29,836 nt of DNA from a virus, in IMG/VR virus record IMGVR_UViG_2029527005_000013; one strand, 5' to 3'. The stretch's first letter is position 1. Every line of letters begins with the position of its first letter. Positions 1 through 10,196 of the stretch are shown here, piece after piece. The notes under the pieces are model-generated. The model searched no databases. It was given only the letters and a program-made list of their open reading frames with translations, and was not told the origin of the DNA. A program made the translations under genes and the position numbers.

Positions 1-419
1 TTGTGTAAAGCGCGGTACTCGTTTTCAATAGCCCATTTCAGGTTAAACGGGGTAACGTTGACGGCCCCGGCGCGGGCGTACTTCAGATCCTGCATGATTA
101 ACGGGTAACCGCTAGGGAGGCAAGCCTCGCCATATTTCGCCAAGTCTGCGAATACTTGATCCGGGTATTCGTTCCCGCAATTAGTTTCAATGCTAACCTG
201 GAAGCCCTCATGATAACCGGACTCAATCGAAACGGTCCAAAATTCTGGGGTGTCGATACCGTCGATCACTTCCTGCATTTGGTCTCGCTGTTCGCTGGTC
301 CAGTATGCGTGATCCTCTGCGTTCTGCTGTTGGATCTCTTCGTCGTCATTCCAGTCATTGAACGGGAAAGAAGCCAGGTTTAACATGATGCCGTTAGTGC
401 GAAAGTTTGGGCTACCCAT
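1..419 (-). CDS. hypothetical early phage protein, acidic N-half (MGSPNFRTNGIMLNLASFPFNDWNDDEE...), truncated by window edge
   Basis: Read manually: ATG at 419, frame open to position 1, purine-rich leader and a dedicated promoter at 472-500; absent from the ORF track because it has no stop in the window. Confidence 0.8.
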   Translation of the reverse strand, partial: MGSPNFRTNGIMLNLASFPFNDWNDDEEIQQQNAEDHAYWTSEQRDQMQEVIDGIDTPEFWTVSIESGYHEGFQVSIETNCGNEYPDQVFADLAKYGEACLPSGYPLIMQDLKYARAGAVNVTPFNLKWAIENEYRALH

Positions 420-471
420 TTTACGATCTCTCTTTTGTTTGTGCGGCGCGGTGTGCGTCGCTATGTGTGAT

Positions 472-500
472 ATTATGGGGCCTATCGTCGGCCCCGTCAA
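472..500 (-). promoter_or_regulatory. sigma70-type promoter TTGACG-17-CATAAT with AT-rich upstream element AAAATAGTTG
   Basis: Hexamers and spacing read directly; spacer carries inverted repeat GGGGCC/GGCCCC. Confidence 0.8.
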
Positions 501-509
501 CAACTATTT

Positions 510-881
510 TTAAATATTTTTGCAGGTTACGGGGCCAGTTGCGATCACGCTGCTTTCATCCATCATAGATAAAAAGCCTTTGCCCGTGCGGGTGTCGATC
601 TGCACCGTGGTTGATCCGGTGGCGTCCTCTTCGTGATAAGTGCGGGTAGTTCCTTTGTCGTACACGTCGCCGGACGGCGTAAAGTTTTGGGCCGGGCTTG
701 TCTTGCCTGTTGCCTCATTGGTGAGCGTCACACGGCAAACGGGCGCACTGTTGCGGGCCTTCTCCACCTCCGCGATAAAATCAGGCACGGCGAAACGGTC
801 CCGCATATCTTCGGACCAGCCAGCGGCGGCAGTGTTGACCAGGGAAGCGGAAAGGATAGCGGCGGCGATAATCTTTTTCAT
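510..881 (-). CDS. small secreted/periplasmic protein with Sec signal peptide
   Basis: MKKIIAAAILSASLVNTAAA|G signal peptide; two Cys in the mature part; own promoter. Confidence 0.8.
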   Translation of the reverse strand: MKKIIAAAILSASLVNTAAAGWSEDMRDRFAVPDFIAEVEKARNSAPVCRVTLTNEATGKTSPAQNFTPSGDVYDKGTTRTYHEEDATGSTTVQIDTRTGKGFLSMMDESSVIATGPVTCKNI

Positions 882-912
882 GGTGTAAACTCTCATTTGT
901 TTGTGTGCCTGA

Positions 913-942
913 AGTGTAAGCCGGGACGGTGCCCGGCGTCAA
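913..942 (-). promoter_or_regulatory. sigma70-type promoter TTGACG-18-TACACT
   Basis: Same AAATAGTTG upstream motif as 472-500; spacer inverted repeat GCCGGG/CCCGGC. Confidence 0.75.
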
Positions 943-945
943 CAA

Positions 946-1272
946 CTATTTATAGTTTAGTTTTGTTTCTTCCTGGTACGGCTTGCCCGTTGCCGTTTCA
1001 TAAACGACATAGCGCCCGGCGCGGTCCGCCTGCTGAAGAGTAACGGCGCGATCCTGGCATTGCTTCACGCTACCAATATAAACCGGGTCAAGGTCCGCCA
1101 GGGTAACAGGTCCCACACCAGGCAGGATCTTGAATAGGGCATAGCCACGATCCACACTATCGAACCCGGCGAACCATTCCAGGCGGTTGGCCTCCTTATT
1201 GTATCGGCAAGCGCGGACCGATCCGGCGTGTGCGGCGGTGGTCCCTTCAATGAAATATTTCGTTTGTTGCAT
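946..1272 (-). CDS. hypothetical early phage protein
   Basis: 108-aa ORF with AAGGAG RBS and upstream promoter. Confidence 0.8.
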   Translation of the reverse strand: MQQTKYFIEGTTAAHAGSVRACRYNKEANRLEWFAGFDSVDRGYALFKILPGVGPVTLADLDPVYIGSVKQCQDRAVTLQQADRAGRYVVYETATGKPYQEETKLNYK

Positions 1273-1302
1273 TGTCTTTACTCCTTTGTGTGGTGTGGCT
1301 GC

Positions 1303-1331
1303 ATTGTGGCCCGGCGGGCCTGGTAAGTCAA
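1303..1331 (-). promoter_or_regulatory. sigma70-type promoter TTGACT-17-CACAAT
   Basis: Hexamers read directly; inverted repeat GGCCCG-C-CGGGCC in the spacer; AT-rich upstream. Confidence 0.7.
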
Positions 1332-1355
1332 CATAATTTTATTTTGTCGTGGGGA

Positions 1356-1384
1356 TTGACTAACCACCAGGCTTGATCAATAAT
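1356..1384 (+). promoter_or_regulatory. sigma70-type promoter TTGACT-17-AATAAT (divergent from 1303-1331)
   Basis: Hexamers and spacing read directly. Confidence 0.65.
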
Positions 1385-1412
1385 GAGGACTCAAGCAAAC
1401 GAGGATCAAACG

Positions 1413-1673
1413 ATGACCAATACAGAATTGTTAATGAAGGCGCTAGGCTGGCAAGGTGGCACCGTTCACCAGGTGGCACGGGAAACCGGGATCACGGTTT
1501 GCCAGGTCTTGGACCTGCATACTTTCGGGCATTGCGTTTACAATACCCCACGCCGCCGGGGATACCGGGACGCCAGCCAGGGCAAGATTGACGCCGCCCC
1601 GGCGGGGCTAGATACCAGTGAATTGATCTCTTATTGGTACGGCGTGATCCAATTCCACCGGGGATATTTTTAA
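1413..1673 (+). CDS. hypothetical protein (MTNTELLMKALGWQGGTVHQVA...)
   Basis: GAGGA RBS before ATG 1413; upstream promoter. Confidence 0.75.
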   Translation: MTNTELLMKALGWQGGTVHQVARETGITVCQVLDLHTFGHCVYNTPRRRGYRDASQGKIDAAPAGLDTSELISYWYGVIQFHRGYF

Positions 1674-1692
1674 ATTATTTTCGTGTGGGGTA

Positions 1693-1722
1693 TTGACGGC
1701 CCGGCGCAAGCTGGGCTATACT
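1693..1722 (+). promoter_or_regulatory. sigma70-type promoter TTGACG-18-TATACT with no conventional ORF downstream
   Basis: Near-consensus hexamers; spacer hairpin GCCCGGC-GCAA-GCTGGGC. Confidence 0.75.
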
Positions 1723-1728
1723 TCTATT

Positions 1729-1823
1729 AACAGGAGAAGAGACGCCACCCCACGGCGAAAAGGCGGGGCTAACGTACCGGGCACCGGGGCCAGGTCGGAA
1801 GGTGAATCGCCGGGAGTTCGTCC
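1729..1823 (+). ncRNA. candidate small structured RNA (or ACG-initiated/decayed micro-ORF 1742-1879)
   Basis: GC-rich ~95 nt directly after a strong promoter, no ATG ORF; possible H-type pseudoknot at 1743-1768. Confidence 0.35.
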
Positions 1824-1854
1824 AAAATAGTTTTGTAAAGAAACGTAAAGGCGC

Positions 1855-1883
1855 TTGCAACCTGGGCCGATTTGTTTAATAAT
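1855..1883 (+). promoter_or_regulatory. sigma70-type promoter TTGCAA-17-AATAAT
   Basis: Hexamers read directly; followed by ACACATAGCG, the same leader start found after promoter 472-500. Confidence 0.6.
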
Positions 1884-1885
1884 GT

Positions 1886-1944
1886 ACACATAGCGGGAAC
1901 AAAGAGACCGGAGTACAAAACACCGGGGGTGCCCGCTATTCTGC
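1886..1944 (+). ncRNA. candidate ~55-nt hairpin RNA
   Basis: ATAGCGGG(1890-1897)/CCCGCTAT(1932-1939) outer stem, CCGG/CCGG inner stem, A-rich loops, no RBS-led ORF. Confidence 0.35.
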
Positions 1945-2026
1945 AAATGCGAATGATTATCATTCACCTACCTAAATGCGAATCACTATCATTTCACTTC
2001 TCAAATGAGAATTATTCTCATTCCAC
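1945..2026. promoter_or_regulatory. three tandem Fur-box-like palindromes, 29-bp period
   Basis: AAATGCGAATGATTATCATT (1945), AAATGCGAATCACTATCATT (1974), AAATGAGAATTATTCTCATT (2003); compare Fur 9-1-9 consensus AATGATAATNATTATCATT. Confidence 0.7.
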
Positions 2027-2088
2027 TCCCGGCGCGGGGCGCTGGCCCACGTTTTCGATTTCAATTTGGAACGGCATCACTCTGCCAC

Positions 2089-2268
2089 GAATACGATTTC
2101 GATTTTGAAAATGAGATCGAGAACTCGATCGAGAAGTCGAGATCCGGCGCGAGAATACGATTGAGAAATTGAGATCGGGATCGAGAACCCGGTAGCCCTG
2201 TCGAGACCTCGCGCCCGGCAGCGGGCACAAGAATACGATCGGCAGAATGGAAAAGCGATCGAGAACTC
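2089..2268. repeat. GATC-rich dispersed repeat cluster (4x GATCGAGAA(C/G)(T/C)C, 3x GAATACGAT)
   Basis: 12-mers at 2115, 2127, 2179, 2257; 9-mers at 2089, 2153, 2231; seven GATC between 2115 and 2260. Confidence 0.8.
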
Positions 2269-2286
2269 AAAATTTTTGATTGGCCG

Positions 2287-2359
2287 TAACTCCATTAATG
2301 AGTAGCTTATGACTCATTAATGGGGCATAACTCTCTTAATGAGTGGTTTATGACTCATT
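2287..2359. repeat. direct repeat of a 32-bp palindrome-containing unit, 41-bp period
   Basis: TAACTCCATTAATGAGTAGCTTATGACTCATT (2287-2318) and TAACTCTCTTAATGAGTGGTTTATGACTCATT (2328-2359). Confidence 0.85.
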
Positions 2360-2442
2360 GCCTATGAAGGTTTGATGAGGTGTGTGGAAGTTTGTTCAAT
2401 CCATTTGATGATGATGTGCCTGTGCGTACACGCCTACCAGGT

Positions 2443-2542
2443 ATCTTGATTTCAATCTTGAATCTATTTTCAAATCGAAAACTGATTTCAAATCTCGGCG
2501 CAAATATCATGGCAAATATCAAATCGATTTTCGATCTGAAAA
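2443..2542. repeat. AT-rich low-complexity tract (TTTCAAATC, CAAATATC repeats), partly an inverted copy of 2097-2117
   Basis: 2462-2480 reverse-complements to TTTCGATTTGAAAATAGAT versus TTTCGATTTTGAAAATGAGAT at 2097-2117. Confidence 0.6.
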
Positions 2543-2567
2543 CTAAGCCGTCCTTGGCCCACAAATA

Positions 2568-3422
2568 TCAGAGGGCTACAGAGATGAAGTTACGTATGTC
2601 AATACCTGTCTTGGGTTTGTTGCTGACATAGTTCTTCTCTTGGTAGTCACGCAGGTATCGCAGGACTGTCCAGTCTGCGCCTGGGTGTAGCACATCAAAC
2701 AGGGCAATCTCTTCCTCCAATGGCTCTGCCCAGTTCTCAAAGTGAGACATGAAGTCTGTCACAGGCATGACAAAGGCCCCGGTCTTTTGTCGGGAGGGAT
2801 CTTTACTGCTGAGGACAATCTCATTGTCTCGGGTAAAGATCATGTGCCCAGGATTCCATTCGGAATCGAAACGCAGTACGCCACCAGAACAAGCCTTCAC
2901 ACTGAGACGGCCCATTGCATCATCCCGCAGGTAGCCGTGATACATATCATCGGTGCGGTAGCTTACCGTCATGAACTTCAGGGCATGGAAATTGTGGACA
3001 AACTGACCAACCTGATAACCGAACCAGGCGTGTGCAACGTCCTTCAGTGTCTTCGATGTTGGGAGATTCTCCTCCAGGCCCCCCTGTAATTTCTCCACAA
3101 AGGCGACCATCTCGTCCCGTGTCATGTTTTCCGGGTCCCACTCTTGGGTCAGTGAGGCACAGGCATCGCGTATACCACGGTGAAGCAGGTCGATGGTTTC
3201 GTAAGACTTCTCGACGTACATCTCCAGTTCGTTATCAAAGTCGAAGTCACTGGCGATACTGCTGATGTCGCTCGCCGCCTCGCTCCCTTCGTTCTCTGTA
3301 ATAGATTGCACGTCACCGAGACGCTTTGTCAGATCTTTGAAGTCGGGAACGGTTGGGCTTGGCCTTGCCCCACGGGCGTAGTCCATCACCCCGTGTAAGA
3401 ATATTGCATCAAATGAACTCAT
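2568..3422 (-). CDS. hypothetical protein, 284 aa, acidic
   Basis: Long ORF with AGGAG RBS; last gene of the leftward cluster. Confidence 0.85.
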   Translation of the reverse strand: MSSFDAIFLHGVMDYARGARPSPTVPDFKDLTKRLGDVQSITENEGSEAASDISSIASDFDFDNELEMYVEKSYETIDLLHRGIRDACASLTQEWDPENMTRDEMVAFVEKLQGGLEENLPTSKTLKDVAHAWFGYQVGQFVHNFHALKFMTVSYRTDDMYHGYLRDDAMGRLSVKACSGGVLRFDSEWNPGHMIFTRDNEIVLSSKDPSRQKTGAFVMPVTDFMSHFENWAEPLEEEIALFDVLHPGADWTVLRYLRDYQEKNYVSNKPKTGIDIRNFISVAL

Positions 3423-3448
3423 GCTCTAAAAGCTCCTGTAACGACGCA

Positions 3449-3468
3449 GGAGAGGCGCAAGCCTCTCC
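3449..3468. other. intergenic GC-rich hairpin GGAGAGGC-GCAA-GCCTCTCC (no U-tract)
   Basis: Perfect 8-bp stem between two genes; possible mRNA stabiliser or weak terminator. Confidence 0.55.
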
Positions 3469-3480
3469 CGGTATACTTTG

Positions 3481-3738
3481 TTATCCGACGATAGATCGTG
3501 GCACGTTGGGGTCCTGACGGCTCTTGGTGTGGTCATCCACGTAAGCCTGTTGGCTTGCCAATAAACTGCCGCAGTCAATCCCCGCCTGCATGGTGTTTCG
3601 TAACGCCTGCGGGCACACGCCGTCCTGAATAGCCTTGGCTGTCAGTTCCTCTGCGAGAGCACGGACCTTATCCCAGGCTTCCTGCTGATAGGTAGCGAAC
3701 TCACGGGTCATCTTCCCGTACTTGTCATAGCAGATCAT
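3481..3738 (-). CDS. hypothetical protein
   Basis: Start MICYDK overlaps the upstream stop (ATGA coupling). Confidence 0.7.
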   Translation of the reverse strand: MICYDKYGKMTREFATYQQEAWDKVRALAEELTAKAIQDGVCPQALRNTMQAGIDCGSLLASQQAYVDDHTKSRQDPNVPRSIVG

Positions 3739-4010
3739 GATACGTAGTCCAGTACAGCGCCGCATTTTTCCATCTCTGCCAGCAACCAGATGCAGGCTTG
3801 GTTGAACTCGACCTCGTTCTCTACGTCTGCCGTCAGGTAATACTGGCAGAACTCCGCATCATCAACGTTAAGCAGTACCACGTTGCCGAAGGGTTGCTCC
3901 GGGAACTTCTGCATGATGTGGTTTTCGATAGCGTCATACTGGTCTTCGTTGGCCGGGATAAAGAACATTACGCCAGTTTGGATCGTGCGAGTAATTTTCA
4001 GGTCTGCCAT
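3735..4010 (-). CDS. hypothetical protein
   Basis: GGAG RBS, tightly packed in the operon. Confidence 0.75.
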   Translation of the reverse strand: MADLKITRTIQTGVMFFIPANEDQYDAIENHIMQKFPEQPFGNVVLLNVDDAEFCQYYLTADVENEVEFNQACIWLLAEMEKCGAVLDYVS

Positions 4011-4011
4011 T

Positions 4012-4239
4012 TTATTTCTCCACATAGTGTTTAAGGAAACATTCTACAGCCAGGTTCGGAACGGTCTGGTAGAAGAAGTCATTCTCCGTCCCGTGGAACA
4101 TAGCCGCCACATCTGGGAAGTCCTCTTGAATATAGTTCCAGAGGTTCTGCCCAACACGTAACTGGGGGTGTGCCCGGTTCAGTTCGTATGCCTGATTGAT
4201 GAGTTTAGCAGCATTCTTATGGCTGATCAACTTAGTCAT
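4012..4239 (-). CDS. hypothetical protein (HPQLRVGQ motif)
   Basis: GGAGG RBS, operon packing. Confidence 0.75.
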   Translation of the reverse strand: MTKLISHKNAAKLINQAYELNRAHPQLRVGQNLWNYIQEDFPDVAAMFHGTENDFFYQTVPNLAVECFLKHYVEK

Positions 4240-4576
4240 CAGTTACCTCCGAAGTGATACGGTTTGCCCAGCCCTCAAGGCGGATGTTTACGAATGTGGA
4301 AAACTCCTCGCTCTCCTGCATACGTTCCAGTGTCTCAACCGCTCCCAGCGCCTTGATGGCCTTGATGAATTTAATCATCTCGTCTTGGTTGTCCAGGTTC
4401 AGCTTACGCACAGCTTCGGTGAATGCGTAGTTGTTGTCATCCATCTGGGGGATGAATGCGTCCATCTCCCACTGCTCGGAATCTCCGTTACGCATAGCCT
4501 GGTATTGGCGGATGTCCTTCTGACAGATCCCTGCCATAGCCTCTACGTTCTTGATGTTCTCAAAGATGTGGTTCAT
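4232..4576 (-). CDS. hypothetical protein
   Basis: GGAG RBS, ATGA overlap. Confidence 0.75.
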   Translation of the reverse strand: MNHIFENIKNVEAMAGICQKDIRQYQAMRNGDSEQWEMDAFIPQMDDNNYAFTEAVRKLNLDNQDEMIKFIKAIKALGAVETLERMQESEEFSTFVNIRLEGWANRITSEVTDD

Positions 4577-4935
4577 TTATTCTTCTCCAGTTCAGTGATG
4601 GCGTCGGATGCCGCCTTTGTGTTTCTGAAATTGATTGTAGCACACTGGCCCATCACGTCAAGACGCTGAAGCAAAGTTTCTGCTGCATCATCTTCACCCA
4701 TTGCCCAGAAGCCCGGCAGGCCGAGGAACTCACACCAGTACGCCTTGCCCCATGAGTCGATTGACTTCGGGCAGGTCTCGTCGGTGTAGGTCCAGTACCC
4801 AACACCAAACCCGGACAGGCCGTTCTTGGTCAGGATCAACTCCGGCATACAGTCACAGGAGTCATTGATGTGGCACTCACAATCACCGAGACCCTGGCGG
4901 ACCATGTACTGTGGGACGATTTTATTGATGTTCAT
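4573..4935 (-). CDS. hypothetical Cys-rich protein (CECH..SCDC)
   Basis: ORF with ATGA overlaps on both sides. Confidence 0.75.
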   Translation of the reverse strand: MNINKIVPQYMVRQGLGDCECHINDSCDCMPELILTKNGLSGFGVGYWTYTDETCPKSIDSWGKAYWCEFLGLPGFWAMGEDDAAETLLQRLDVMGQCATINFRNTKAASDAITELEKNK

Positions 4936-5126
4936 TCGCTTCTCTCTACGTAAACTGGTGTGTTTTCACGGAACGCCATTGCGATCCCGCTGTTGTAGCC
5001 ATACTGGTGCATTATTGCCGAGATGGCCTCTTCAATATCTTTCTGAAATTGAGGATACAGGACGTTCGGCATCCTGTCAACAATCCATTCAGCACCTTGG
5101 CTCAAACGTACAGTTGCCTTCGCCAT
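4932..5126 (-). CDS. hypothetical protein
   Basis: GGAGG RBS, TGATG coupling. Confidence 0.7.
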   Translation of the reverse strand: MAKATVRLSQGAEWIVDRMPNVLYPQFQKDIEEAISAIMHQYGYNSGIAMAFRENTPVYVERSE

Positions 5127-5350
5127 CACATGTCCTCCAGTTCGAACAGTGCATTGTCGTACTGACCGCCGATGGAGTCCTCGTAGAACCCGATGGTCGC
5201 GTTCAGCTTCGCCAGTTCGGCGTCAACACCTTTGATGCCAGCGTCACGCATTTCCAGTTCGAGGGCCAGTTGCAGGCGGCGGACTGCCTCGATGTGGCCT
5301 TTCTGTTTAGCGATGCGGGCCAGGTCATTTGCTTTCTTCTTCATGCTCAT
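5126..5350 (-). CDS. hypothetical helical protein
   Basis: GAGGA RBS before MSMKKK; first gene after promoter 5384-5411. Confidence 0.75.
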   Translation of the reverse strand: MSMKKKANDLARIAKQKGHIEAVRRLQLALELEMRDAGIKGVDAELAKLNATIGFYEDSIGGQYDNALFELEDM

Positions 5351-5383
5351 CGTTTCTTCCTCGTGTTTTGTTTCGATGGGTGT

Positions 5384-5411
5384 ATAATAACACACCCGGC
5401 ACCGGATGCAA
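5384..5411 (-). promoter_or_regulatory. extended -10 promoter TTGCAT-16-(TGn)TATTAT
   Basis: AAATAGTTG upstream motif shared with the early promoters; inverted repeat CATCCGG/CCGGGTG. Confidence 0.7.
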
Positions 5412-5414
5412 CAA

Positions 5415-5717
5415 CTATTTGAACATTTTTACCAATTTCTGACGAATGCCGTAGCCTTTCGGGTTTTCTTGGTAAAGATGGTACGCCTTGGTCCACGTCA
5501 TAACCTTACTGTAGGACGATCCTTTGTGGCTAAAGGAAATAGATACCGACCTGTCATGGTCATGAATGAAGACCATGATGCCTTCCTGTCCGAAGCACTT
5601 ACGCAACTTGCGTTGGTTGTTATAATCACCCATCCATTCATGAGCCTCGCCATCTTGACTCAGGGAAACCATACATACAAAGCCGAGGATCAGTAATGCG
5701 ATAAGTAATAAGTCCAT
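5415..5717 (-). CDS. hypothetical membrane-anchored protein
   Basis: N-terminal hydrophobic helix; AGGAG RBS. Confidence 0.75.
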   Translation of the reverse strand: MDLLLIALLILGFVCMVSLSQDGEAHEWMGDYNNQRKLRKCFGQEGIMVFIHDHDRSVSISFSHKGSSYSKVMTWTKAYHLYQENPKGYGIRQKLVKMFK

Positions 5718-5733
5718 GATGTTCTCCTGTTAG

Positions 5734-5751
5734 GCCCCGGCATTCCGGGGC
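5734..5751. other. intergenic hairpin GCCCCGG-CATT-CCGGGGC
   Basis: Perfect 7-bp stem just upstream of the RBS. Confidence 0.5.
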
Positions 5752-5758
5752 ATTATGA

Positions 5759-5995
5759 TTAGTCTTTGAGTACAAATCCGTAACTGGACTCTGCACTTCT
5801 GATGTAGGAGGCTTTGCAGGCTATGTACCCGATGTGCCCAGAGGCACCCTTCATTTCTCCTCGGAAACGCATTCTGTCCATCCCGGTGGTCATTGCATCC
5901 GCCAGGTAATAGCTGGCGACTTCAGCCACAATCTTCCCCACTTTTCCGAACTCTTCGCTTTTGGTAATTTCGATTACGACCGCTTTGGTTTCCAT
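5759..5995 (-). CDS. hypothetical protein
   Basis: GAGGAGG RBS before METKAVV. Confidence 0.75.
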   Translation of the reverse strand: METKAVVIEITKSEEFGKVGKIVAEVASYYLADAMTTGMDRMRFRGEMKGASGHIGYIACKASYIRSAESSYGFVLKD

Positions 5996-6022
5996 GACAC
6001 CCTCCTCTGTTTCGATGAGAGA

Positions 6023-8636: not shown

Positions 8637-10196
8637 TTAGATATACTTGTCGAAATCAACTGCGTTCCCGAATGGCGGCTTCCATTCCTGACCGTGACGC
8701 CCCAGGATAACCCACAAGGTTTTCGGCCCATACCGCTTGGCCCAGTCCTTCACCTTAGACACATCGGAGAAACATCCATCCGTGTAGATCACAATCTGGT
8801 CCGGCTCACGGTCCTGCTCGTCCATGTAGTTGAACACACATTTCACATCTGTCCCGAAGGTCGTTGTGATGCTGTAATCACTGATCTCCTTGACGTTCTT
8901 TTTGGTGTACGTCTTGACATGACCAACTTTTGTTGACCAGCAACCCAAGTGTACCACAAAATCATCGTACTGGTTACACAAACCTTTGATCTCTCGGATC
9001 GTTGGCTTCAGTAACGTATCGTTAAAGGACCCGGACACATCGAACCAAATGTCTGCCTCGATTGTCTTCGCCTTAGAGTGCGATGGTAAGCCGATCGTCT
9101 GCCGGGAGGACAGATACCCTGCCTTACGTAAAGAACGTGTCAGAGAGTAGCTACGGCGGCTTAAACGGCGGTATGTCACGTTGTCCTTGAACAGACGTTC
9201 GATTGTCCGGCGTAACAGACGCAGATAGTTGATCTTCGGCTTGCCTGCCTCTTCCACAAACTTACGAGCATCAGGCGGCGCACCCTTGCCCGCTGCCTGC
9301 ACGGCGTTCTCAATTGCACGACGCATCACAGTGTCGTTGTAGTTCTTCTGGTCCTGAGTCAGCGGCTTCTGTGCTGCCGGGTCGGTGCCCATAGCCTTTG
9401 ACAGGTCGCCTGCCTCTTCAGAGTCAATGGAGCCGTCTGGATTGCAGTGCTGGTCCACACCCTTTTGGCCCGAACCTGGGTTGTTTCCGCCCGGCTGGCC
9501 CGACTGGTCATCCCCCTGACCACCACTACCTTGCCCCGAACCGCCGCCCGGCATCTGCGGTTGTTCTTTCTTCAGGATCTCGTAGATCTGCTCTGCGTAC
9601 ATATCCACAAAGCGGAAATCACAATACCCGAAAGCCATGAACCCAAACTCCTCTTCGTGCTTGAAGACGGTACGCTCGCCCGCCGGGAACCACGCCTTGC
9701 CCAGTTCGTTGGCCTTGGTATGAGCCATGACCAGGTTGGTATTGATACGGTGATCCGCCGCGATGTTGAACAGGGCATGGTCAAATCCCCGGCCTCGGTG
9801 TGCGTGGTCAGAGATCACGTGGTCACACTCATGCTCAAGAACCAGCGCCACTTCACGGGCAGTTTTACGACGATAGAAGACATTGATCATCTGCTTCGTC
9901 TCTTTGTTCTTCGCCGGATCGGTGACGAACATGTCGATACGGGCAAACACCGCCTTCTTACGGTTGTCACACATCCCGGTGATGAACTCCGGGGAGTAGA
10001 AGATGTCGCGCCCATTGGTAGCCATCGTGTTGATGGTCTCCGTCGCCCTGATTACAGGCATAGAGGACAGCATGACTCCATAAAAGGGCTTAAACCTCAT
10101 CAATTGTAAACTGGCGGCTTCAATTAACTTTTCCGCCTCTTCAGTGTTGGCGTTAGCCCAGTCCAACTCTTCCTGACTCATAATATTGTCAATCAT
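8637..10196 (-). CDS. DUF2201-type putative metallopeptidase (HExxH) with C-terminal vWA-like domain
   Basis: TMATNG, HECDH, FNIAADHRIN; Gly/Gln-rich linker; MIDAS-like DVSGS...T...YTDG. Confidence 0.9.
   Translation of the reverse strand: MIDNIMSQEELDWANANTEEAEKLIEAASLQLMRFKPFYGVMLSSMPVIRATETINTMATNGRDIFYSPEFITGMCDNRKKAVFARIDMFVTDPAKNKETKQMINVFYRRKTAREVALVLEHECDHVISDHAHRGRGFDHALFNIAADHRINTNLVMAHTKANELGKAWFPAGERTVFKHEEEFGFMAFGYCDFRFVDMYAEQIYEILKKEQPQMPGGGSGQGSGGQGDDQSGQPGGNNPGSGQKGVDQHCNPDGSIDSEEAGDLSKAMGTDPAAQKPLTQDQKNYNDTVMRRAIENAVQAAGKGAPPDARKFVEEAGKPKINYLRLLRRTIERLFKDNVTYRRLSRRSYSLTRSLRKAGYLSSRQTIGLPSHSKAKTIEADIWFDVSGSFNDTLLKPTIREIKGLCNQYDDFVVHLGCWSTKVGHVKTYTKKNVKEISDYSITTTFGTDVKCVFNYMDEQDREPDQIVIYTDGCFSDVSKVKDWAKRYGPKTLWVILGRHGQEWKPPFGNAVDFDKYI

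What the first reader, a model, noticed from the sequence alone, without database searches (positions are those of the whole stretch)
1945..2026. Three phased Fur-box-like sites in a lytic phage
Seen: AAATGCGAATGATTATCATT, AAATGCGAATCACTATCATT and AAATGAGAATTATTCTCATT start at 1945, 1974 and 2003, an exact 29-bp period. Each is followed by (T/C)0-1CAC, and the third contains a perfect 9-1-9 palindrome. Established: gammaproteobacterial Fur binds AATGATAATNATTATCATT-type sites, and multicopy Fur boxes titrate Fur (FURTA). No iron-related gene or obvious overlapping promoter lies here. Inference: the array could be (a) a DNA decoy that derepresses host iron uptake as phage DNA replicates, (b) an iron-dependent roadblock for the small RNAs transcribed from 1693/1855, or (c) an iron-sensing switch on the adjacent repeat element.
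Basis: partly seen in the sequence, partly recalled or inferred. Interest (0 to 1): 0.8.

Follow-up and report, generated by a model that had tools for sequence, protein, structure and literature searches.

The report
Host Fur-operator array in phage hub
Three evenly spaced DNA sites in a gene-free stretch of this virulent enterobacterial phage are indistinguishable from proven binding sites of the host iron sensor Fur, and hundreds of related phages keep them in exactly the same place just behind a small RNA gene. The phage therefore almost certainly recruits Fur there, probably as an iron-dependent transcription barrier, though no binding or effect has been tested.

Summary
Three 19-bp palindromes lie at 1946-1964, 1975-1993 and 2004-2022, exactly 29 bp apart (0.02 matches expected by chance).

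They are Fur-type operators:
- A matrix learned only from E. coli Fur-bound promoters scores them 24.4, 19.6 and 26.7 bits; its training sites score 20.5-29.1.
- The phage consensus, searched in E. coli K-12, lands on gpmA, ryhB, yoeA, nohD/nohA, entS, entC, oppA, exbB and fhuE. Several of these are gel-shift-proven Fur sites.
- The phage has no Fur homologue.

The array sits at a fixed offset behind a promoter-driven ~50-nt hairpin RNA in all 16 comparison phages that keep that hairpin RNA, with no indels. The module is detectable in 554 phage records. A second cluster of boxes lies about 11-13 kb away. The two clusters flank the sigma70-promoter-dense early island, where converging gene blocks meet.

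The unrelated phage T5 carries the same boxes in its injection-stop region. This phage has no homologue of T5 A1 or A2, which points to a host factor.

Best reading: host Fur binds (about 0.8), most likely acting in cis as an iron-dependent roadblock or insulator (about 0.4). Titration of Fur would be a side effect.

This scan has noted the same kind of array before, in this genome and in other genomes. I found no paper describing it.

The parts
1946..1964 (.). Fur-type operator 1, AATGCGAATGATTATCATT. A weaker overlapping site lies 6 bp to the right (1952, 10.2 bits).
   Evidence: 24.4 bits with the E. coli-derived matrix. The box is present at the same offset in all 16 comparison phages that keep RNA2.
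1975..1993 (.). Fur-type operator 2, AATGCGAATCACTATCATT.
   Evidence: 19.6 bits. It lies 29 bp from box 1 in every comparison phage with two or more boxes (14 of the 16).
2004..2022 (.). Fur-type operator 3, AATGAGAATTATTCTCATT, a perfect 9-1-9 palindrome.
   Evidence: 26.7 bits. It differs from the gel-shift-proven gpmA Fur site AATGATAATAATTCTCATT only at position 6 and at the centre.
1855..1883 (+). Promoter P2 (TTGCAA-17-AATAAT), preceded by the conserved A/T-rich element TTTTGTAAAGAAnnGTAAAG.
   Evidence: The hexamers are conserved while the spacer sequence varies across phages.
1890..1939 (+). RNA2, a ~50-nt hairpin RNA. The outer stem is ATAGCGGG/CCCGCTAT and the conserved loop motif is GAG(T)ACAAnCACCGG. 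It ends 6 nt before box 1.
   Evidence: There is partial covariation in the outer stem (A-U to G-C). Paralogous cassettes occur in hub 1 and in phage slur16.
1693..1722 (+). Promoter P1 (TTGACG-18-TATACT), which drives RNA1.
1729..1815 (+). RNA1, a nearly invariant ~85-nt non-coding element upstream of P2. It is context, not part of the Fur array.
   Evidence: covarying stem. No Rfam match.
2040..2560 (.). Downstream gene-free repeat region, with the GAATACGAT iteron three times, GATC-rich repeats and a duplicated palindrome cassette. Any read-through from P1/P2 past the boxes would enter it.
   Evidence: Only the GAATACGAT motif is shared across lineages.

Best explanation
The three boxes are genuine high-affinity operators for the host ferric uptake regulator Fur. 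The phage has no Fur of its own, so iron-loaded host Fur dimers present at the moment of infection should occupy them.

The array is the fixed 3' partner of a small transcription unit: a sigma70 promoter P2, then a ~50-nt hairpin RNA, then the boxes. This unit fires outward from the phage's early-gene island into a zone where it meets converging transcription.

I propose that bound Fur acts in cis as a protein roadblock or insulator. In iron-replete cells it would stop P1/P2 transcription at the boxes and stop incoming transcription from the other side. In iron-starved cells (apo-Fur off the DNA), transcription would run on into the repeat region and antisense into the neighbouring genes. As phage DNA copies accumulate, the 8-15 boxes per genome would also tie up a sizeable share of the cell's Fur as a side effect.

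Shown: the sequence identity with proven Fur sites, the conservation, the fixed geometry and the boundary position. Inferred: Fur occupancy, the roadblock effect and its dependence on iron.
For: (1) Fur identity.
- The phage-box consensus, searched in E. coli K-12, gives 51 sites against 7 for the reversed control.
- The 0-1-mismatch hits lie directly upstream of gpmA, ryhB, yoeA (a TonB-dependent receptor) and nohD.
- Other hits lie in fepD-entS and upstream of entC.
- Further hits coincide, after the known coordinate offsets between genome versions, with the Chen 2007 sites at oppA, nohA, acnA, exbB and fhuE (PMC2189734).
- That paper shows Fur gel shifts for yoeA, fepD-entS, gpmA, ryhB, fhuA, nohA, oppA and fhuF.

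(2) Independent matrix. A matrix learned de novo from seven E. coli Fur-bound promoter regions has the consensus AATGATAATAATTATCATT. It scores the boxes 24.4, 19.6 and 26.7 bits, within the range of its training sites (20.5-29.1). The phage genome has 9 sites at 15 bits or more against 0.23 expected.

(3) Extent of the conserved unit. Information per position in 27 distinct phage boxes is high only across the 19-mer. It dips at the positions where Fur is tolerant (centre, 6 and 14).

(4) Protein site rather than RNA hairpin. Half-site variation is asymmetric (GAGAAT, GCGAAT, GATAAT).

(5) No phage Fur. There is no Pfam FUR match in the phage, and the control genomes do match.

(6) A shared host factor. 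Unrelated phage T5 has five pattern matches (0-3 mismatches; four distinct boxes, two matches overlapping by 6 bp) at 9552-9715, in its injection-stop region; T4 has 2, no more than the reversed control, and T7 has none. T5-like phages even align to the array by blastn. This phage has no homologue of the T5 DNA-binding proteins A1 or A2.

(7) Cis role.
- Boxes start at +30, +59, +88 (and +126) from an RNA2 loop anchor in every phage where that anchor could be found, and the alignment shows no indels between RNA2 and the boxes in the rest. Neighbouring segments do carry indels.
- The promoter-hairpin-box cassette is duplicated in hub 1 of this genome and occurs twice in tandem in rV5-like slur16.
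- None of these small units has an intrinsic terminator where the boxes stand.
- Boxes cluster in two hubs that flank the early island, which is dense in sigma70 promoters (34 found against 14.1 expected). The block to the right is not (24 against 16.3).
Against: - No binding data exist for any of these phages, and I found no transcriptome or paper.
- Phage boxes prefer G at half-site position 6 (GAGAAT, 23 of 27). The E. coli sites listed mostly have T there (GATAAT), by my reading rather than a tally. This could mark a different binder, or selection against -10-like hexamers.
- A roadblock at 1946 should stall RNA polymerase with its active site near 1930, inside the 3' arm of the hairpin. 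The hairpin therefore cannot act as a simple release element, and the reason for the fixed 6-nt gap is unexplained.
- The 29-bp period (2.76 helical turns) does not put the dimers on one face of the helix.
- In Mydovirus-type relatives a strong promoter follows the boxes directly. Blocking downstream transcription cannot be the whole story there.
- Conservation of spacing among related phages is partly inherited rather than independently selected.
Confidence: 0.45

Rival explanations
1. Fur sponge. The boxes exist mainly to titrate host Fur as phage DNA multiplies. This would derepress the host iron-uptake and iron-sparing regulon (RyhB, siderophore systems, NrdHIEF) to feed iron-dependent phage enzymes.
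For: - The sites score as high-affinity.
- There are 6-15 sites per phage genome against 51 in the whole E. coli chromosome by the same pattern. A hundred genome copies would therefore outnumber the host sites many-fold.
- The principle is established by the Fur titration assay (my knowledge).
- The phage encodes a di-iron ribonucleotide reductase small subunit.
Against: - A sponge needs no fixed position, phase or partner, yet the boxes keep an invariant offset behind RNA2 and a 29-bp phase, and they sit only at the edges of the early island.
- Three sites per array is few.
- Titration becomes large only late, when host transcription may no longer matter.
- No host iron gene needs to be induced for a single-cycle burst, as far as is known.
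Confidence: 0.15
2. The boxes are operators of a phage-encoded dimeric DNA-binding protein whose specificity happens to resemble that of Fur. Fur binding would be incidental or excluded.
For: - The phage consensus GAGAAT-N-ATTCTC is shifted from the host's GATAAT preference.
- GAGAA[TC] half-site-like hexamers also litter the downstream repeat region.
- The flanking genes are almost all of unknown function, so a binder could be hidden among them.
Against: - Several phage boxes match proven Fur sites at all 18 specified positions or differ at one position. For example, phiTE/Mydo AATGATAATCATTCTCATT differs from gpmA only at the unspecified centre, and KE23 differs from ryhB at one position. 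Abundant Fur should bind regardless.
- The same boxes occur in T5-like phages, which share no A1 or A2 homologue with this phage.
- The sites must work from the first minute, before any phage protein exists, if they act on the early promoters.
- The conserved + strand gene next to the hub (1383-1673) is missing in CR3, CR9 and POP15, which keep the boxes.
Confidence: 0.15
3. The array is a classical Fur-repressed promoter. The flank of box 1 would supply a -35 and the right half of box 2 a -10, with box 3 at about +10. The promoter would drive iron-starvation-induced transcription into the repeat region.
For: - A promoter-like match TTCACC-18-TATCAT lies at 1963-1992.
- The right half of box 2 is TATCAT in most relatives.
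- Overlapping boxes at -35 and -10 are the standard Fur operator layout (established knowledge; aerobactin promoter).
Against: - The -35-like hexamer is weak and not conserved (TTCAAC, TTTTGG, TTCAAA, TTTCGT).
- There is no UP element, unlike every clear promoter of this region.
- No conserved product lies downstream, and the sequence after the last box diverges between lineages.
Confidence: 0.1
4. The array is not a regulator site at all. The AT-rich repeats would be a DNA-unwinding or injection-pause element of an origin-like or terminal region, or RNA hairpins within a longer P2 transcript.
For: - The boxes neighbour iteron-like and GATC-rich repeats.
- The T5 copies lie in its injection-stop region.
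Against: - phiTE-type genomes are circularly permuted, so there is no fixed end (PMC3475682).
- There is no enrichment of DnaA boxes.
- Folding of the transcript is not better than shuffles (z = -1.66), and half-site changes are not compensatory.
- The match to Fur sites is far too specific for a generic AT-rich element.
Confidence: 0.05

Closest known systems
Chromosomal Fur operators of Enterobacterales (19-bp Fur box; 7-1-7 / 9-1-9 reading; clusters with 6-bp-shifted overlapping sites; Chen et al. 2007, PMC2189734)
   Same: They share the same 19-bp palindrome and the same tolerant positions. Overlapping 6-bp-shifted weaker sites occur in both (1952 here). Scores fall within the range of proven sites.
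   Different: These boxes do not overlap the promoter of an iron gene. They lie at +56 to +132 behind a small non-coding transcription unit, as three separate sites with a strict 29-bp period, on a virulent phage genome. G is preferred over T at half-site position 6.
Host Spo0A boxes on the virulent Bacillus phages phi29 and Nf (Castilla-Llorente et al. 2009, PMC2731898)
   Same: A lytic phage carries binding sites for a host global regulator. Through them the host's physiological state controls early phage transcription and replication (abstract).
   Different: The regulator, signal and host are different. In phi29 the boxes overlap early promoters and origins, and binding is proven. Here the sites lie downstream of a promoter and nothing has been tested.
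Fur titration assay (FURTA) and multicopy Fur-box plasmids
   Same: Many copies of a high-affinity Fur box in one cell derepress the Fur regulon. Replicating phage DNA would create the same situation.
   Different: FURTA is a laboratory artefact used as a tool. No natural element is known to me that uses it, and the fixed geometry here argues for a cis role.
Repeat region 3 / injection stop signal of phage T5 (Davison preprint, 10.1101/866236)
   Same: The same AAATGAGAATCATTATCATT-type boxes occur in tandem (9552-9715) in a large conserved gene-free region at the edge of the first-expressed genes. blastn aligns T5-like arrays with this one.
   Different: The T5 region sits at a fixed distance from a physical genome end and is tied to two-step DNA injection. 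The spacing is 23-46 bp. The preprint's repeats and palindromes are interpreted through DnaA boxes, not Fur. phiTE-type genomes are circularly permuted.
Fur sites in E. coli cryptic prophages upstream of nohA/nohD, and Fur boxes before prophage cargo (stx1, sitABCD; PMC6969025)
   Same: They are Fur-binding sites on phage-derived DNA. The nohA site is gel-shift-proven.
   Different: They are single sites at promoters of prophage genes, not phased gene-less arrays in a virulent phage.

Membership tests
Fur box (operator of gammaproteobacterial Fur) | Sequence match to the 19-bp Fur consensus, at a score typical of proven sites | tested here: met
   The boxes score 24.4, 19.6 and 26.7 bits with a matrix trained on seven E. 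coli Fur promoters, whose own sites score 20.5-29.1.
Fur box (operator of gammaproteobacterial Fur) | Reciprocity: the element's own consensus retrieves known Fur-regulated promoters in a host-type genome | tested here: met
   51 hits against 7 for the control in E. coli K-12. The top hits are gpmA, ryhB, yoeA, nohD/nohA, entS, entC, oppA, exbB and fhuE.
Fur box (operator of gammaproteobacterial Fur) | Metal-dependent binding by Fur protein (gel shift, footprint, ChIP or FURTA) | not testable with these tools
Fur box (operator of gammaproteobacterial Fur) | Overlap with the -35/-10 region of a promoter whose transcription responds to iron | tested here: not met
   The boxes lie at +56 to +132 of P2. 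The only overlapping promoter-like match is weak and not conserved. This is a feature of typical Fur-repressed promoters rather than of a Fur-binding site as such.
Host-regulator sites on virulent phage genomes (phi29 / Spo0A type) | Binding sites for a host regulator that the phage does not encode, conserved across related lytic phages | tested here: met
   There is no FUR domain in the phage. The boxes are conserved in all 16 comparison phages that keep RNA2, and the module is found in 554 records.
Host-regulator sites on virulent phage genomes (phi29 / Spo0A type) | Regulator binding changes phage transcription or replication | not testable with these tools
   This needs infection of fur-mutant or iron-starved hosts.
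Type III toxin-antitoxin antitoxin-like RNA repeats (ToxI / pseudo-ToxI of phiTE) | Tandem direct repeats conserved as RNA, similar to ToxI, at the phiTE escape locus | tested here: not met
   The phiTE pseudo-ToxI lies at 106,714-106,772, far from this hub. In these boxes the palindromic core is conserved while the spacers vary, and half-site changes are not compensatory.

The most novel reading that the evidence does not exclude
A large group of virulent enterobacterial phages (rV5-like Vequintavirinae and Stephanstirmvirinae, and independently T5-like phages) has co-opted the host iron sensor Fur as a ready-made, time-zero DNA-binding factor. Phased Fur arrays would serve as iron-gated terminators or insulators that bound the early-gene island and set the 3' ends of small phage RNAs. 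The phage developmental programme would thus read the cell's iron status at the instant of infection.
Probability: 0.3. Interest if true: 0.8.

Novelty: new variant of a known kind. Interest (0 to 1): 0.62.

Why it matters
Fur boxes are textbook elements. Host-regulator sites on lytic phages are known for phi29 and Spo0A. I found no report that virulent coliphage-type phages carry conserved, phased, gene-less Fur operator arrays.

If Fur binds and gates transcription, three things would follow:
- It would add a direct molecular link between host iron status and lytic phage development. Iron limitation is the norm in infected tissue, so this bears on phage therapy with rV5-like phages.
- It would give a function to the conserved non-coding hubs of a widely used phage family.
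- It would offer a testable candidate factor for the unexplained repeats in the T5 injection-stop region.

It is also a natural example of a protein roadblock standing where a terminator would be expected.

Tried and rejected
- Rfam scan of 1-6000 at E<=1: nothing relevant. No tRNA or tmRNA in the window.
- RNA-level reading: the P2 transcript through the boxes folds no better than shuffles (z = -1.66), and RNA1 alone gives z = +0.42. Half-site changes are not compensatory. Rejected.
- Pseudo-ToxI or type III antitoxin mimic: the phiTE escape locus is elsewhere. Rejected.
- Origin signature: DnaA boxes are not enriched in either hub, and the hub's GATC content is not exceptional in 500-bp bins. 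Not supported; not excluded.
- Phage-encoded Fur: none. T5 A1 or A2 homologues: none.
- Function of neighbouring genes: all nine match only PHROG families of unknown function, with no Pfam domain above cut-off. No iron gene is nearby.
- Supplementary site list of Chen 2007: not held, so I built my own matrix by expectation-maximisation. The first attempt timed out.
- Literature searches for Fur boxes on lytic phages, for rV5-like transcriptomes and for Fur in the T5 stop signal returned nothing relevant.
- Hairpin-plus-roadblock as a conditional intrinsic terminator: considered, but the expected stall point (about 14 nt before the box) lies inside the 3' arm of the hairpin. I do not claim it.

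Full report
**1. Observation**

The window is positions 111,989-141,824 of a complete 152,940-bp virus record. Its nearest relatives are Pectobacterium phage POP15, Cronobacter phages CR3 and CR9, and Pectobacterium phage phiTE, all in Vequintavirinae, genus Certrevirus.

The repeat finder reports them as one family with spacing 29 and 29. The core is a 19-bp palindrome at 1946-1964, 1975-1993 and 2004-2022. Its consensus, with up to 3 mismatches, occurs nowhere else in the window, and 0.02 matches are expected by chance.

**2. What the sites are**

I ran three independent tests.

*(a) Reciprocal search.* I searched the degenerate phage consensus AATGAKAATNATTMTCATT (up to 3 mismatches) over the whole E. 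coli K-12 chromosome. It gives 51 sites, against 7 for the reversed control.
- The only perfect match lies 26 bp upstream of gpmA.
- The one-mismatch matches lie on the ryhB promoter, upstream of the TonB-dependent receptor pseudogene yoeA, and upstream of nohD in prophage DLP12.
- Other hits lie in the fepD-entS intergenic region and upstream of entC.
- Chen et al. 2007 (PMC2189734) report gel shifts with Fur for yoeA, fepD-entS, gpmA, ryhB, fhuA, nohA, oppA and fhuF.
- They also give coordinates for sites at gpmA, oppA, nohA, acnA, exbB and fhuE. These equal my hits once the insertion offsets between genome versions (+768, +1967 or +1969) are added. The offsets are my inference.

*(b) Independent matrix.* I learned a palindromic 19-mer matrix by expectation-maximisation from seven E. 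coli Fur-bound promoter regions only. Three were picked by gene identity: fepA-fes, fepD-entS and fepB-entC. Four were the annotated upstream regions of gpmA, yoeA, ryhB and nohD, which were selected after the pattern search, so this is a partial circularity.
- The consensus is AATGATAATAATTATCATT, and the training sites score 20.5-29.1 bits.
- The window's boxes score 24.4, 19.6 and 26.7 bits.
- The phage genome has 9 sites at 15 bits or more, against 0.23 expected. Seven of them lie between 100.5 and 114.0 kb.

*(c) Information profile.* In 27 distinct boxes from the comparison phages, information is high exactly over the 19-mer. It is low at the centre and at positions 6 and 14, where Fur is tolerant, and low in the 10-bp spacers.

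Half-sites vary independently (GAGAAT, GCGAAT, GATAAT), which is the pattern of a protein site rather than an RNA stem. The transcript does not fold better than shuffles.

The phage encodes no FUR-family protein, while the control genomes ring. One difference from host sites: the phage prefers G over T at position 6.

**3. Conservation and anatomy**

The comparison set is 18 distinct sequences including the window (17 comparison phages).
- Sixteen of the 17 comparison phages keep RNA2 and box 1 at the same place, counting KE23 and excluding L028.
- Fourteen have two or more boxes.
- L022 has one box.
- L023 is cut off after box 1.
- Only L028 lacks RNA2 and the boxes.

Wherever the anchor motif in the RNA2 loop could be found, the boxes start at +30, +59 and +88 from it, with a fourth at +126 in CR3-type phages. 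The alignment shows no indels between RNA2 and the boxes in the others. The promoter spacers, the hairpin interior and the DNA after the last box do carry indels or diverge. A distant blastn search finds the module in 554 phage records, 141 of them covering 80% or more of the query.

The order of parts along the + strand is:
- promoter P1 (1693-1722);
- a nearly invariant ~85-nt RNA1 with a covarying stem;
- an A/T-rich element, then promoter P2 (1855-1883);
- a ~50-nt hairpin RNA2 (1890-1939) with the loop motif GAG(T)ACAAnCACCGG;
- six nucleotides;
- the boxes.

There is no intrinsic terminator between P2 and the boxes.

The same cassette (promoter, hairpin with the same loop motif, box) is present in inverted orientation at 102,990-102,860 of this genome. 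It occurs twice in tandem in the rV5-like phage slur16. In Mydovirus-type relatives, KE23 and L022, a further strong promoter follows the boxes directly.

**4. Genome context**

A second cluster of boxes lies at 100,538-102,879. Between the two clusters lies a run of about twenty small minus-strand genes, each with a near-consensus sigma70 promoter: 34 promoter-like sites against 14.1 expected. To the right of the window's hub, the count is near chance, 24 against 16.3.

Genes on the outer side of each hub point towards it, so both hubs are convergence zones. Both promoter-hairpin-box cassettes fire outward from the early island.

Five relatives (phiTE, CR3, Mydo, FBKp34, KE23) have 6-15 boxes each, concentrated in two clusters about 10-13 kb apart.

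The nine neighbouring genes have no known function, and none is iron-related. The phage does encode a di-iron ribonucleotide reductase small subunit elsewhere.

**5. Host factor or phage factor**

Phage T5 belongs to a different family. The pattern gives five matches at 9552-9715 (four distinct boxes, two of the matches overlapping by 6 bp), and the matrix adds another box at 9610. All lie within the annotated injection-stop region and around the published shear point of about 9618.

T4 has no more matches than the control, and T7 has none. T5-like phages align to the array by blastn. This phage has no detectable homologue of the T5 pre-early DNA-binding proteins A1 or A2.

Several phage boxes are identical or nearly identical to proven E. 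coli Fur sites. The shared factor is therefore most simply the host's Fur. A phage protein with overlapping specificity cannot be excluded.

**6. Mechanism**

Shown: the sites are Fur-type, conserved, phased, tied to the 3' side of a small transcription unit, and placed where early outward transcription meets converging transcription.

Inferred: Fur-Fe2+ occupies them from the first moment of infection and blocks RNA polymerase in both directions. Without iron, P1/P2 transcripts would run into the repeat region (2040-2560) and antisense into the 2568-3422 gene.

The fixed position and phase, the small copy number and the boundary location argue for a cis role over a pure sponge.

There are caveats:
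- The expected stall point lies inside the 3' arm of the hairpin.
- The 29-bp period does not align the dimers on one face of the helix.
- A downstream promoter exists in some lineages.
- Part of the fixed spacing is simply inherited.

phiTE-type DNA is circularly permuted (PMC3475682), so a T5-like role in stopping injection is unlikely here. Titration of Fur by replicating DNA is quantitatively plausible: 8-15 sites per genome against 51 in the host by the same pattern. I regard it as secondary.

**7. Comparison and novelty**

As sequence elements these are members of the Fur-box family on every feature testable here, except overlap with an iron-regulated promoter. Binding itself is untested.

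As a system, the nearest precedent is the use of host Spo0A boxes by the lytic phages phi29 and Nf (PMC2731898). I found no paper that describes Fur arrays in rV5-like phages or in T5.

Earlier notes of this scan reached the same reading for the other hub of this genome and for other phages. I re-tested the points I use. I class the finding as a new variant of a known kind.

**8. Verdict**

- Observation: confirmed.
- Fur-type identity: well supported, with about 0.8 probability that Fur binds.
- Cis roadblock or insulator role: the best of several untested readings, at about 0.4-0.45.
- Interest: 0.62.

Noticed in passing
window 1729-1815 (promoter P1 at 1693-1722): RNA1 is an ~85-nt non-coding element, almost invariant across Vequintavirinae and Stephanstirmvirinae. 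It has a covarying stem (ACGUACCGGG..CCAGGUCGG versus ACAUACCAGG..CCUGGUUGG) and no Rfam match. In IMG/VR locus L028 a ribosome-binding site and ATG follow it directly, so it may be a leader there.
   Followed up: partly
window 1855-2022 (+); genome C1:102990-102860 (-); L034 480-620 and 640-790: A recurring cassette: sigma70 promoter, then a ~50-nt hairpin RNA with loop GAGACAAnCACCGG, then Fur box(es). There is one copy in each hub of this genome, both firing away from the early island, and two tandem copies in rV5-like phage slur16.
   Followed up: partly
window 2089-2097, 2153-2161, 2231-2239: The iteron-like motif GAATACGAT is repeated three times inside a GATC-rich repeat block. The same short motif follows the boxes in all lineages compared. 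It could be the site of a phage DNA-binding protein or part of an origin.
   Followed up: no
window 2276-2357: A duplicated 41-bp cassette containing the inverted repeat CCATTAATGAGT / ACTCATTAATGG (D5 and I7). Function unknown.
   Followed up: no
L018 (E. coli K-12 580592-580610) and K-12 1636591-1636609: The cryptic lambdoid prophages DLP12 and Qin carry top-scoring Fur sites just upstream of the terminase-small-subunit-like genes nohD and nohA. The nohA site is gel-shift-proven in Chen 2007. Why a packaging gene should carry a Fur site is unexplained.
   Followed up: no
L030 (phage T5) 9552-9715: Tandem Fur-type boxes (up to 27.5 bits) lie in the T5 injection-stop region around the published shear point of about 9618. 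The Davison preprint interprets this region through DnaA boxes and does not mention Fur.
   Followed up: partly
window 1-1331 and genome C1:103000-112500: An early island of about twenty small minus-strand genes. Each has its own near-consensus sigma70 promoter (TTGACG-17/18-CATAAT) preceded by an A/T-rich element.
   Followed up: partly
window 1383-1673 (+): This is the only + strand gene beside the hub (96 aa, PHROG families of unknown function). It is present in phiTE, SSBI34, Mydo and KP13-16 but absent from CR3, CR9, KaOmega and POP15, which keep the boxes.
   Followed up: partly
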